A stretch of DNA of 64,000 bases, taken from assembly GCF_003790525.1 (NCBI RefSeq), contig NZ_CP033635.1. One strand, written 5' to 3'. Below, piece after piece: positions 7,743 through 10,845 of the stretch; position 1 is the stretch's first letter; every line of letters begins with the position of its first letter. Under the pieces are notes generated by a model, which worked only from the letters and a program-made list of their open reading frames with translations, was not told the origin of the DNA and did no database searches. A program made the translations under genes and the position numbers. Source of the stretch: Escherichia coli. GTDB taxonomy: Bacteria > Pseudomonadota > Gammaproteobacteria > Enterobacterales > Enterobacteriaceae.

Positions 7743-9101
7743 ATGAAGGCAAAAGCGATATTACTCGCCTCTGTCCTGCTCGTGGGTTGCCAGAGCACCG
7801 GCAACGTTCAACAGCACGCACAGAGCCTTTCTGCAGCTGGTCAAGGGGAAGCAGCAAAGTTTACAAGTCAGGCACGATGGATGGACGATGGGACGTCTAT
7901 CGCGCCAGATGGTGACTTGTGGGCTTTCATTGGCGACGAGCTAAAGATGGGAATTCCGGAAAACGACCGGATTCGCGAACAGAAACAGAAATATTTACGC
8001 AATAAGAGCTATCTCCACGATGTAACTTTACGGGCAGAGCCGTATATGTACTGGATAGCCGGGCAAGTTAAAAAACGTAACATGCCTATGGAACTGGTAC
8101 TACTACCCATAGTGGAGAGCGCTTTTGATCCTCACGCAACGTCTGGCGCCAATGCCGCGGGCATCTGGCAGATCATTCCGAGCACGGGGCGCAATTATGG
8201 TTTGAAACAGACCCGCAATTATGACGCGCGTCGCGATGTTGTTGCTTCAACAACTGCCGCGCTGAACATGATGCAGCGTCTGAACAAGATGTTTGACGGC
8301 GACTGGCTTCTGACCGTAGCGGCTTATAACAGCGGCGAAGGTCGGGTCATGAAGGCAATTAAAACGAACAAAGCGCGTGGGAAATCCACGGACTTCTGGT
8401 CGTTACCGTTGCCGCAGGAAACGAAGCAGTACGTGCCTAAAATGCTGGCATTGAGTGATATTCTCAAAAACAGCAAGCGTTATGGCGTACGTCTGCCAAC
8501 GACCGATGAAAGCCGTGCTCTGGCGCGTGTGCACCTGAGCAGCCCGGTTGAAATGGCGAAGGTTGCAGATATGGCGGGGATTTCCGTCAGCAAGCTGAAG
8601 ACATTCAACGCTGGCGTGAAAGGCTCCACGCTGGGCGCAAGTGGTCCGCAGTACGTGATGGTGCCAAAGAAGCATGCAGATCAACTGCGTGAATCTCTGG
8701 CTTCAGGCGAAATTGCTGCTGTACAGTCGACGCTGGTTGCCGACAATACGCCGCTTAACAGCCGTGTTTACACCGTACGCTCTGGCGACACGCTTTCAAG
8801 TATCGCTTCACGTCTCGGCGTAAGCACCAAAGATTTGCAGCAGTGGAACAAACTGCGCGGATCTAAGCTGAAGCCAGGCCAAAGTTTGACGATTGGTGCA
8901 GGCAGTAGCGCACAGCGACTGGCAAACAACAGCGATAGCATTACGTATCGTGTGCGCAAAGGCGATTCGCTTTCAAGCATTGCTAAACGCCACGGCGTGA
9001 ACATCAAAGATGTAATGCGCTGGAACAGCGATACTGCGAATCTGCAACCAGGCGATAAGCTGACGTTGTTTGTGAAAAACAACAGCATGCCAGACTCCTG
9101 A
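7743..9101 (+). CDS. mltD: Membrane-bound lytic murein transglycosylase D, 452 aa, lipoprotein with LysM repeats
   Basis: Signal/lipobox LLVGCQS at N-terminus; repeated LysM-like segments (YTVRSGDTLSSIA..., YRVRKGDSLSSIA...) at C-terminus. Confidence 0.92.
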   Translation: MKAKAILLASVLLVGCQSTGNVQQHAQSLSAAGQGEAAKFTSQARWMDDGTSIAPDGDLWAFIGDELKMGIPENDRIREQKQKYLRNKSYLHDVTLRAEPYMYWIAGQVKKRNMPMELVLLPIVESAFDPHATSGANAAGIWQIIPSTGRNYGLKQTRNYDARRDVVASTTAALNMMQRLNKMFDGDWLLTVAAYNSGEGRVMKAIKTNKARGKSTDFWSLPLPQETKQYVPKMLALSDILKNSKRYGVRLPTTDESRALARVHLSSPVEMAKVADMAGISVSKLKTFNAGVKGSTLGASGPQYVMVPKKHADQLRESLASGEIAAVQSTLVADNTPLNSRVYTVRSGDTLSSIASRLGVSTKDLQQWNKLRGSKLKPGQSLTIGAGSSAQRLANNSDSITYRVRKGDSLSSIAKRHGVNIKDVMRWNSDTANLQPGDKLTLFVKNNSMPDS

Positions 9102-9112
9102 CAAACCAGATA

Positions 9113-9150
9113 ATAAAAAAGGCACCGATTCCCCCGGTGCCTTTTTTATT
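9113..9150. terminator. Bidirectional intrinsic terminator between convergent mltD and yafE
   Basis: aaaaaa-GGCACCG-attccc-CCGGTGCC-ttttttattt: GC stem flanked by A-run and T-run. Confidence 0.7.
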
Positions 9151-9920
9151 TATGCCGCTTTATGTGCTTCTAACATGATGATATCACTGGTGAAAGAGCC
9201 ATCATTCTGCAAGGCAAAATACGTTTTCACCTCTGTCGATGCGCTCTGTTGGTAAATGCGAATAGCGTCTACTAACGCTTCTGGCGTACGCATTCTCGCT
9301 ACCCATGAAGAAAATTCCAGCGGTAACTTATCTGTAATTAAATTATCAACTATCAGATTGGCTTCATTGATTAACTTCAACCACTCACCGCTGGCGTAGT
9401 TTCGTACGTGAGAGGTATCGCGTAATGCTTCTACCGTCTGTAACCAGATGTCGCGCACTGGATGACCCGGAGACATTACGTCCATCACAATCAGCCTACC
9501 GCCGGGTTCCAATACCCGATTCACTTCACGCAGTGCTGCACCAACATCATGCCAGTGATGGGCAGAATAACGGCTGATAACAATATCAAATGCGTTATCG
9601 GCAAATGGCAGACTTTCGGCATAACCCTGGCGGGTGGTGATATTTTTCAGTTGCCGGGCTTCGGCAGCTTGTGCCACGACATCCAGCATTTGGGCAGATA
9701 AGTCATACGCCACCACCGCGCTCACGTTCTGCGCAGCGACAAAGCTGGCATGCCCTGCTCCGCAGCCCATATCAAGTACACTTGCATCAGGATAATCAGC
9801 CAGACGCACCGCCAGGCGCTGTAAATCTCGCCCGGATGCATGTACGGTACTGGTTAAATACTCACTGGCCTGCGAGCTAAACTGCTTTTCTACGTGGTCA
9901 TGGTGGGATTGTGTTGTCAT
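9150..9920 (-). CDS. yafE: Class I SAM-dependent methyltransferase YafE (256 aa as ORF)
   Basis: ORF translation with glycine-rich SAM-binding motif VLDMGCGAGH; N-terminal extent uncertain. Confidence 0.8.
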   Translation of the reverse strand: MTTQSHHDHVEKQFSSQASEYLTSTVHASGRDLQRLAVRLADYPDASVLDMGCGAGHASFVAAQNVSAVVAYDLSAQMLDVVAQAAEARQLKNITTRQGYAESLPFADNAFDIVISRYSAHHWHDVGAALREVNRVLEPGGRLIVMDVMSPGHPVRDIWLQTVEALRDTSHVRNYASGEWLKLINEANLIVDNLITDKLPLEFSSWVARMRTPEALVDAIRIYQQSASTEVKTYFALQNDGSFTSDIIMLEAHKAA

Positions 9921-9993
9921 TCTGTCCTTTTATTGTTTGATTAAAAAGGGCAGCGCCAAACGTTGGTCTGCCCTGTGGCAGACCTGACATACC

Positions 9994-10845
<852 letters not shown>

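What the first reader, a model, noticed from the sequence alone, without database searches (positions are those of the whole stretch)
9150..9920. yafE start-site ambiguity: the 256-aa ORF includes full SAM-binding motif I
The ORF from the ATG at 9920 gives 256 aa with about 50 residues N-terminal to the VLDMGCGAGH motif. A shorter annotation (about 207 aa in K-12, as I recall it) would begin right at motif I and likely truncate the Rossmann fold. The longer form is structurally more plausible.
Basis: inference. Interest (0 to 1): 0.15.

Follow-up and report, generated by a model that had tools for sequence, protein, structure and literature searches.

The report
Intact yafE methyltransferase; K-12 copy is deleted
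The 256-residue gene in this window is the normal, complete and already annotated form of the yafE methyltransferase. The shorter 207-residue K-12 version is not a different start choice but the remnant of a ~220-bp deletion that removed the gene's start and its cofactor-binding motif.

Summary
Window 9150-9920 (-) is a 256-aa ORF whose motif I (VLDMGCGAGH) lies at residues 48-57. The window is E. coli SMS-3-5, and RefSeq already annotates exactly this CDS.

The start at 9920 is secure:
- An in-frame TAA lies four codons upstream.
- An AAGGA Shine-Dalgarno precedes the ATG.
- Orthologues in Salmonella, Citrobacter, Klebsiella and Enterobacter are 256 aa, begin at the same Met, and conserve residues 1-47 as well as the catalytic core.

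There is no start-site ambiguity. K-12 carries a deletion (217 bp in window coordinates, 221 bp in most E. coli) between imperfect 11-bp direct repeats. It removes the SD, the ATG and codons 1-~62, including all of motif I. The K-12 207-aa ORF starts at a fortuitous ATG 3 nt after the yafD stop.

About 30% of complete E. coli genomes lack the segment, including K-12 and B strains, which have two different junction variants. A 2025 paper found that purified MG1655 YafE binds no SAM, which the deletion explains.

This is an ordinary gene and a useful curation note, of low novelty.

The parts
9150..9920 (-). yafE CDS, 256 aa, class I SAM-dependent methyltransferase (intact allele)
   Evidence: ORF listing. 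Pfam PF08241, 95.7 bits. Identical RefSeq CDS WP_000211711.1. 256-aa orthologues with 100% coverage.
9925..9929 (-). Shine-Dalgarno AAGGA, 4 nt upstream of the ATG. Other E. coli alleles have a 7-nt spacer.
   Evidence: Sequence. AAGGACA is invariant in 5 genera. Anti-SD duplex -5.3 kcal/mol, the best of the early in-frame start candidates. Spacer difference.
9930..9932 (-). In-frame TAA stop four codons upstream of the ATG; the ORF cannot be extended
   Evidence: Read directly from the sequence. The ORF listing starts the ORF at 9920.
9750..9779 (-). Motif I, VLDMGCGAGH (residues 48-57): strand beta1 plus the glycine-rich SAM-binding loop
   Evidence: Translation. Start of the PF08241 match. 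Model strand 47-52 with pLDDT of about 95.
9768..9770 (-). It is not a credible start.
   Evidence: No SD: duplex -0.2 kcal/mol. The K-12 ORF does not start here.
9739..9955 (.). 217-bp segment absent from K-12, B and about 30% of E. coli. It carries the 3' half of the intergenic region, the SD, the ATG and codons 1-~62.
   Evidence: Pairwise and multiple alignments. Segment present in 3809 of 5426 complete genomes.
9950..9960 (-). Left copy of the imperfect direct repeat, TTTGGCGCTGC, at the deletion boundary
9733..9743 (-). Right copy of the direct repeat, TTTGTCGCTGC, at the deletion boundary
   Evidence: The two junction variants, TTTGG.. (1334 genomes) and TTTGT.. (~270 genomes), correspond to crossovers on either side of the G/T mismatch.
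9988..9990 (-). Intergenic ATG 3 nt after the yafD stop. It is the start of the chimeric 207-aa ORF in deletion alleles. In this window it heads only a 32-codon out-of-frame ORF.
9965..9984 (-). Conserved intergenic hairpin, GGTCTGCC-ACAG-GGCAGACC, just after the yafD stop
   Evidence: RNA fold z = -3.66. Conserved in 5 genera with one compensatory U-A to C-G change in Klebsiella.
9994..10794 (-). yafD (endonuclease/exonuclease/phosphatase family), the upstream gene on the same strand
   Evidence: Synteny conserved in Salmonella, Klebsiella, Citrobacter and Enterobacter.
9112..9150 (.). Terminator-like hairpin flanked by A and T runs, between the convergent yafE and mltD genes
   Evidence: 17-pair stem followed by a T run.

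Best explanation
Window 9150-9920 (-) is the intact, ancestral allele of yafE. It is a 256-aa class I (Rossmann-like) SAM-dependent methyltransferase of unknown substrate, translated from the ATG at 9920 behind an AAGGA Shine-Dalgarno.

Residues 1-46 form N-terminal helices. Residues 47-57 form strand beta1 and the glycine-rich SAM-binding loop.

The 207-aa 'YafE' of K-12 is a deletion allele, not a differently annotated start. Slipped mispairing or illegitimate recombination between two imperfect 11-bp direct repeats (TTTG[G/T]CGCTGC, 217 bp apart here and 221 bp apart in most E. coli) removed four things: the distal intergenic region, the SD, the start codon, and codons 1-~62.

An intergenic ATG 3 nt after the yafD stop happens to fall in frame with the remnant. 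That produces an open 207-codon chimeric ORF lacking beta1, motif I and most of helix alphaA, so it should not bind SAM.

Shown here: the sequences, the deletion, its repeats, its frequency, and conservation of the N-terminus and the start. Shown in the literature: the MG1655 protein does not bind SAM. Inferred: the slippage mechanism, and that the intact protein is an active enzyme.
For: ORF and motif.

Identity to SMS-3-5 and the matching RefSeq CDS.

K-12 versus window alignment: a 217-bp gap flanked by TTTGGCGCTGC and TTTGTCGCTGC. The K-12 ORF reads MSGLPQGRPTFG|AAQNVSAVV....

PGAP labels yafE 'incomplete; missing N-terminus' (pseudogene) in one MG1655 assembly.

Polarity: Salmonella, Klebsiella, Citrobacter and Enterobacter all carry the segment in the same yafD-yafE-mltD-gloB context. 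The ATG and AAGGACA are invariant, so the long form is ancestral.

Of the 120 best homologues, nearly all are 256 aa with 100% coverage.

N-terminal identity is 0.82 against 0.79 for the core, and third-codon-position variation dominates from codon 2 onward.

BH2331 (PDB 1VL5) aligns from query residue 20, so the N-terminal region is conserved as far as Bacillus.

The model gives helices 3-40, beta1 47-52 and alphaA 57-63, with high confidence in the core. Foldseek's top hits are YcgJ, BH2331 and small-molecule methyltransferases.

The SD duplex energy favours Met1 over internal candidates.

The segment is absent from 1617 of 5426 genomes. Junction-specific probes find 1334 and ~270 genomes.

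Purified MG1655 YafE showed no SAM binding and no activity (PMC12096079).
Against: There is no direct evidence (N-terminal peptide, ribosome profiling) that Met1 is the initiation site in SMS-3-5.

Its SD-ATG spacer is only 4 nt, against 7 nt in other E. coli.

Catalytic activity and substrate of the intact protein are untested.

The structure model is only moderate overall (mean pLDDT 65.9; C-terminal third below 50).

The slippage mechanism is inferred from the repeats alone.

The chimeric 207-codon ORF is still open in all three deletion alleles examined (K-12, REL606, O145:H28). Residual function of the remnant is therefore not strictly excluded.
Confidence: 0.93

Rival explanations
1. One reading: a pure annotation ambiguity. 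K-12 and this window have the same sequence here, and the K-12 annotation simply chose an internal start at or near motif I.
For: The K-12 CDS is indeed 207 aa. An ATG (Met51) does sit inside motif I in this window.
Against: The DNA differs. K-12 lacks 217 bp, including motif I. Its ORF starts in the former intergenic region 3 nt after the yafD stop. A start at Met51 would give 206 aa, not 207.
Confidence: 0.01
2. The long form is derived: the 217-bp segment is an insertion in SMS-3-5-like strains, and the K-12 arrangement is ancestral.
For: None, beyond the fact that K-12 is the reference strain.
Against: Four other genera have the segment with a conserved coding sequence and the same start. 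70% of E. coli genomes have it. The segment encodes the indispensable motif I of the fold.
Confidence: 0.01
3. In this window both Met1 and an internal start (Val38 GTG or Met51 ATG) are used, giving two isoforms.
For: In-frame candidate codons exist at 9809 and 9770.
Against: Neither has a usable SD (-2.7 and -0.2 kcal/mol). A Met51 product would lack strand beta1. Conservation gives no sign of a second initiation region.
Confidence: 0.03
4. The 207-aa chimeric protein of K-12 and B strains is a translated, selected, SAM-independent neo-protein rather than a decaying remnant.
For: The ORF is open in K-12, REL606 and O145:H28. Its ATG lies 3 nt after the yafD stop, so translational coupling is conceivable. 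The protein is soluble when over-expressed, and the yafE knock-out changed m6A peak counts, though from one sample only (PMC12096079).
Against: It lacks the central strand and the SAM loop, and no SAM binding or activity was measured. The start codon abuts a stable hairpin and has a poorly placed SD. REL606's allele has 4 nonsynonymous among 5 private changes, and O145:H28 has V207G at a conserved site. PGAP calls it a pseudogene. The K-12 allele differs by 1 nt from an intact allele over the shared 564 bp, so an open frame is expected from recency alone.
Confidence: 0.05

Closest known systems
B. subtilis YcgJ (PDB 1XXL/2GLU) and B. halodurans BH2331 (PDB 1VL5), structural-genomics class I methyltransferases of unknown substrate
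   Same: They are the best sequence matches among solved structures (E = 1e-37 and 1e-31). They share the core plus the C-terminal extension, including the SRYSAHHW and RD.SH.R motifs. BH2331 also aligns through the N-terminal helix region from residue 20. They are among the top Foldseek hits (ranks 1 and 3).
   Different: Identity is only about 26-30% over the structural alignment. Neither has an assigned function, so they give a fold but no substrate.
E. coli K-12 YafE (b0210, UniProt YAFE_ECOLI, 207 aa)
   Same: Same locus and same gene. The C-terminal ~195 residues are about 92% identical.
   Different: The K-12 allele lacks residues 1-~62 (N-terminal helices, beta1, motif I, most of alphaA) through a 217/221-bp deletion. 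It carries 12 unrelated N-terminal residues read from intergenic DNA. It does not bind SAM in vitro.
UbiE/MenG and BioC methyltransferases (the source of older 'UbiE-like' or 'biotin synthesis' labels)
   Same: Same Methyltransf_11 / UbiE-COQ5-type class I fold and motif I.
   Different: Scores are far below the curated family cut-offs: TIGR01934 78 against 158 bits, BioC PRK10258 62 against 342 bits. It is not a member of either family.
Natural-product small-molecule methyltransferases (AtmM, RebM, MitM, TleD)
   Same: They are the next-best sequence and fold matches over the core domain. This suggests a small-molecule rather than a nucleic-acid substrate.
   Different: Identity is low (22-31%). 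The substrate-binding regions differ, and there is no biosynthetic gene cluster context here.

Membership tests
Class I SAM-dependent methyltransferase (Pfam Methyltransf_11, PF08241) | Profile match above the curated cut-off | tested here: met
   95.7 bits against a cut-off of 21.2, residues 49-145, covering profile positions 1-95 of 95.
Class I SAM-dependent methyltransferase (Pfam Methyltransf_11, PF08241) | Motif I: (V/I/L)(L/V)(D/E)xGxGxG glycine-rich loop after strand beta1 | tested here: met
   VLDMGCGAGH at residues 48-57. It is invariant or nearly so in the orthologues. It is absent from the K-12 allele.
Class I SAM-dependent methyltransferase (Pfam Methyltransf_11, PF08241) | Acidic residue at the end of strand beta2 (binds the ribose hydroxyls) | tested here: met
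   VVAYDLS with D73, nearly invariant. It aligns with the corresponding D in 1XXL and 1VL5. Its role is inferred from general knowledge of the fold.
Class I SAM-dependent methyltransferase (Pfam Methyltransf_11, PF08241) | Rossmann-like alpha/beta fold | tested here: met
   AlphaFold2 model with alternating beta/alpha elements; core pLDDT 84-95, overall 65.9. Foldseek probability is 1.00 to many class I methyltransferases.
Class I SAM-dependent methyltransferase (Pfam Methyltransf_11, PF08241) | SAM binding and methyl transfer | not testable with these tools
   Only the truncated K-12 protein has been assayed, and it was negative (PMC12096079).
UbiE/MenG quinone C-methyltransferases (TIGR01934) | Score at or above the NCBIfam cut-off | tested here: not met
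   78.3 bits against 158.35.
BioC malonyl-ACP O-methyltransferase (PRK10258 / TIGR02072) | Score at or above the NCBIfam cut-off | tested here: not met
   62.0 against 342 bits, and 61.6 against 184.95 bits.
N-terminally truncated (pseudogene-like) allele; applies to K-12 yafE, not to the window | Loss of conserved 5' coding sequence relative to orthologues and outgroups | tested here: met
   For K-12, REL606 and O145:H28. The window allele is full length.

The most novel reading that the evidence does not exclude
The chimeric 207-aa ORF, created at least once and possibly twice at the same 11-bp repeat and carried by about 30% of E. coli including K-12 and B, is translated by coupling to yafD and retained for a SAM-independent role. 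A related possibility is that loss of YafE activity is itself adaptive in those lineages. In that case the conserved enterobacterial YafE enzyme has a function that screens using K-12 knock-outs could not detect.
Probability: 0.07. Interest if true: 0.4.

Novelty: already known. Interest (0 to 1): 0.18.

Why it matters
For this window nothing needs changing, because the 256-aa CDS is already the RefSeq annotation.

The practical value lies with the reference strains. K-12 (MG1655, W3110, DH5alpha, BW2952) and B (REL606, C41(DE3)) carry a yafE remnant without motif I. Even so, NC_000913.3 and UniProt still list it as a 207-aa putative methyltransferase, and RefSeq is inconsistent: a pseudogene in one MG1655 assembly, a normal CDS elsewhere.

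Published searches for orphan methyltransferase functions used the Keio yafE knock-out or purified MG1655 YafE (PMC12096079, PMC3936739). The deletion explains the reported lack of SAM binding. It also means those negative results say nothing about the intact enzyme, which is conserved across Enterobacteriaceae. Anyone wishing to find YafE's substrate should use a 256-aa allele such as this one.

Tried and rejected
- **Relaxed selection in K-12.** I first read K-12's S242F, at an otherwise invariant Ser, as post-deletion decay. I rejected this because intact alleles of the same haplotype (O15:H12, ETEC1747) carry the same change.
- **One or several deletion events.** I tried to settle this from flanking haplotypes and could not. 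K-12 (G junction) and O145:H28 (T junction) share a 3' haplotype that about 1080 non-deleted genomes also carry. REL606 (T junction) has a very different 3' haplotype. Recombination and recurrence therefore cannot be separated with about 10 alleles.
- **First junction probe.** The 80-bp probe was unusable for counting, because BLAST joined pieces across the intact segment. I replaced it with 48- and 50-bp probes designed to share fewer than 28 exact bases with other alleles.
- **Rfam.** A scan of 9050-10100 found nothing above any gathering score, only terminator-like resemblances.
- **Literature.** No paper in the library mentions yafD and yafE together. None describes the K-12 truncation.
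- **uORF.** A uORF reading of the intergenic ATG was considered and dropped. The codon is GTG in three genera, is not a start in Klebsiella, and indels break the frame.

Full report
**Observation**

The ORF listing gives a 256-aa ORF on the minus strand at 9150..9920, starting with ATG. It translates as MTTQSHHDHVEKQFSSQASEYLTSTVHASGRDLQRLAVRLADYPDASVLDMGCGAGH....

The sequence upstream reads ...CAATAAAAGGACAGAATG. This places an AAGGA Shine-Dalgarno at 9925-9929. It also places an in-frame TAA at 9930-9932, so 9920 is the first possible start in this frame.

Pfam Methyltransf_11 matches residues 49-145 at 95.7 bits against a cut-off of 21.2. No NCBIfam equivalog reaches its cut-off: UbiE/MenG scores 78 against 158 bits, and BioC 62 against 342 bits.

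**Source and existing annotation**

The stretch is 100% identical to E. coli SMS-3-5 (NC_010498.1). RefSeq annotates exactly this CDS there (241122-241892, WP_000211711.1). It lies between yafD on the same strand and the convergent mltD. The 'longer form' is thus already the annotation for this genome.

**What the K-12 short form really is**

In one search about 30% of genomes, including K-12 MG1655, covered only 79% of the query, in two pieces. Aligning K-12 with SMS-3-5 shows a clean 217-bp gap, corresponding to window 9739-9955.

- Left of the gap the sequence is ...CCAACGTTTGG|CGCTGCCC.
- Right of the gap it is ...CCAGCTTTGT|CGCTGCGC.
- The deletion therefore lies between two imperfect 11-bp direct repeats, TTTG[G/T]CGCTGC, at window 9950-9960 and 9733-9743.

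The lost DNA comprises the distal intergenic region, the SD, the ATG and codons 1-~62.

The K-12 207-aa ORF (b0210, NC_000913.3 231926-232549) begins at an ATG 3 nt after the yafD stop (window 9988-9990). It reads MSGLPQGRPTFG from former intergenic DNA and then continues AAQNVSAVVAYDL.... It contains no motif I at all.

Pfam still recognises the remnant, but the match no longer covers the motif I end of the profile and starts at position 5 of 95. PGAP flags the gene as 'incomplete; missing N-terminus' in one MG1655 assembly. It is nonetheless a normal 207-aa CDS in NC_000913.3, REL606 and O145:H28 RM12581. It is also UniProt YAFE_ECOLI.

**Polarity and the true start**

The best 120 homologues come from Citrobacter, Salmonella, Klebsiella, Enterobacter, Yokenella and others. 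Nearly all are 256 aa with 100% query coverage.

A 15-sequence alignment shows that all full-length orthologues begin MTT.SHHD at the same Met. Mean pairwise identity is:

| Region | Identity |
|---|---|
| Residues 1-47 | 0.82 |
| Residues 48-148 | 0.79 |
| Residues 149-256 | 0.79 |

DNA from Salmonella, K. pneumoniae, C. koseri and Enterobacter shows the same yafD-yafE-mltD-gloB order. The ATG and AAGGACA are invariant in all of them.

Variable sites by codon position are 11:11:36 in codons 2-47. This is the same third-position bias as in the rest of the gene (32:20:87 and 35:19:89).

BH2331 (PDB 1VL5) aligns from query residue 20, so the N-terminal region is conserved as far as Bacillus.

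Anti-SD duplex energies favour Met1 (-5.3 kcal/mol) over Val38 (-2.7) and Met51 (-0.2).

The long form is therefore ancestral, and Met1 at 9920 is the start.

**Structure**

An AlphaFold2 model built from the shallow alignment has a mean pLDDT of 65.9. The core scores 84-95, and the C-terminal third is poor. It gives helices 3-15, 18-23, 25-28 and 31-40, then beta1 47-52, alphaA 57-63 and beta2 68-73.

Foldseek's best PDB hits are YcgJ (1XXL), AtmM and BH2331 (1VL5), followed by RebM, MitM and TleD.

The K-12 deletion thus removes the N-terminal helices, the central strand beta1, the glycine loop and most of alphaA.

**Experimental literature**

A 2025 paper (PMC12096079) cloned yafE from MG1655 genomic DNA and purified the protein. 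It found no change in tryptophan fluorescence with SAM ('suggesting no SAM binding') and no methyltransferase activity. YafS, tested alongside, bound SAM with a Kd of 0.68 uM.

The paper does not mention truncation. The deletion documented here explains its result.

The Keio yafE knock-out was also used in an m6A2030 screen (PMC3936739). Salmonella yafE, which is full length, was one of nine candidates in a PhoP-methylation screen that found no effect (PMC8546571).

**Population picture**

The 217-bp segment is present in 3809 of 5426 complete E. coli genomes and absent from 1617.

Most intact alleles carry 221 bp there. SMS-3-5 lacks 1 nt in a T run and 3 nt in the SD-ATG spacer (AAGGACAG---AATG against AAGGACAGCGCAATG).

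Two junction variants exist:

- TTTGG-CGCTGC-GC is the K-12 type, found in MG1655, W3110 and GM4792 among the rows listed. Allele-specific probes find it in 1334 genomes.
- TTTGT-CGCTGC-GC is found in REL606, C41(DE3) and O145:H28, in about 270 genomes.

The two variants correspond to crossovers on either side of the single mismatch in the repeat.

Whether they represent two events, or one event plus a point change, could not be resolved. K-12 and O145:H28 share a 3' haplotype that many intact alleles also carry (2688 genomes). K-12 differs from the intact O15:H12 allele by 1 nt in 564 bp. REL606 has a quite different 3' haplotype.

**Verdict**

The conclusion that the 256-aa form is the right one is correct and already annotated. 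The 'start-site ambiguity' is not real. The K-12 short form is a deletion allele lacking motif I, not a start at motif I.

This is an ordinary, known gene, with a useful curation note for users of K-12 and B strains.

Noticed in passing
window 9921-9997 (-), the yafD-yafE intergenic region: A conserved hairpin, GGTCTGCC-N4-GGCAGACC, lies right after the yafD stop and shows one compensatory U-A to C-G change in Klebsiella. RNAalifold also pairs GCUGCCCUUU with the AAAGGACAG Shine-Dalgarno region of yafE, which could occlude the SD. In addition, GGGCAG...CUGCCC+UUUUU could form an alternative terminator-like hairpin. No covariation supports the second or third structure. The K-12 deletion removes the 3' half of this region.
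   Followed up: partly
window 9921-9924 (-): SMS-3-5 has a 4-nt SD-ATG spacer (AAGGA-CAGA-ATG). The other E. coli alleles examined have 7 nt (AAGGA-CAGCGCA-ATG), and other genera have 7-9 nt. This could lower translation of yafE in this strain.
   Followed up: no
L001, L003, L010, L016 (K-12, O145:H28, REL606): RefSeq treats the same deletion allele inconsistently. It is a pseudogene 'missing N-terminus' in GCF_000974535.1, but a normal 207-aa CDS in NC_000913.3, REL606 and RM12581.
   Followed up: yes
L013 (strain YD786); P0006; hits H30, H31, H110, H170: There are further independent lesions of yafE in E. coli. YD786 has a frameshifted full-length allele. P0006 is a 243-aa allele with an in-frame 13-aa deletion of strand beta2 (QNVSAVVAYDLSA), seen on 48 contigs. 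Several genomes give only partial or rearranged matches. Together these suggest recurrent decay of the gene in E. coli.
   Followed up: partly
yafE 3' 564 bp in L001-L016: Among 11 E. coli alleles, about 16 of 28 variable sites are at first or second codon positions. Several intact alleles carry private changes at residues invariant across genera (R167C in O157:H7, T169I in ETEC1747). REL606's remnant has 4 nonsynonymous among 5 private changes. This hints at weak constraint on yafE in E. coli generally, but the numbers are small.
   Followed up: partly
P0054, P0059, P0064, P0074 (Klebsiella, 277-279 aa): Some gene calls in Klebsiella extend the protein by 21-23 residues upstream of the conserved MTT start. 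The extension (MGQACVCMVLPLLLKKPKDNA) is not conserved and looks like an over-long start call.
   Followed up: no
window 9112-9150: A 17-pair GC-rich hairpin flanked by A and T runs lies between the convergent yafE and mltD genes and probably acts as a bidirectional terminator. It produced only sub-threshold Rfam resemblances to sRNA 3' ends.
   Followed up: no
and summaries: Two of the ~5440 yafE matches lie on records classed as plasmids rather than chromosomes. They were not examined.
   Followed up: no
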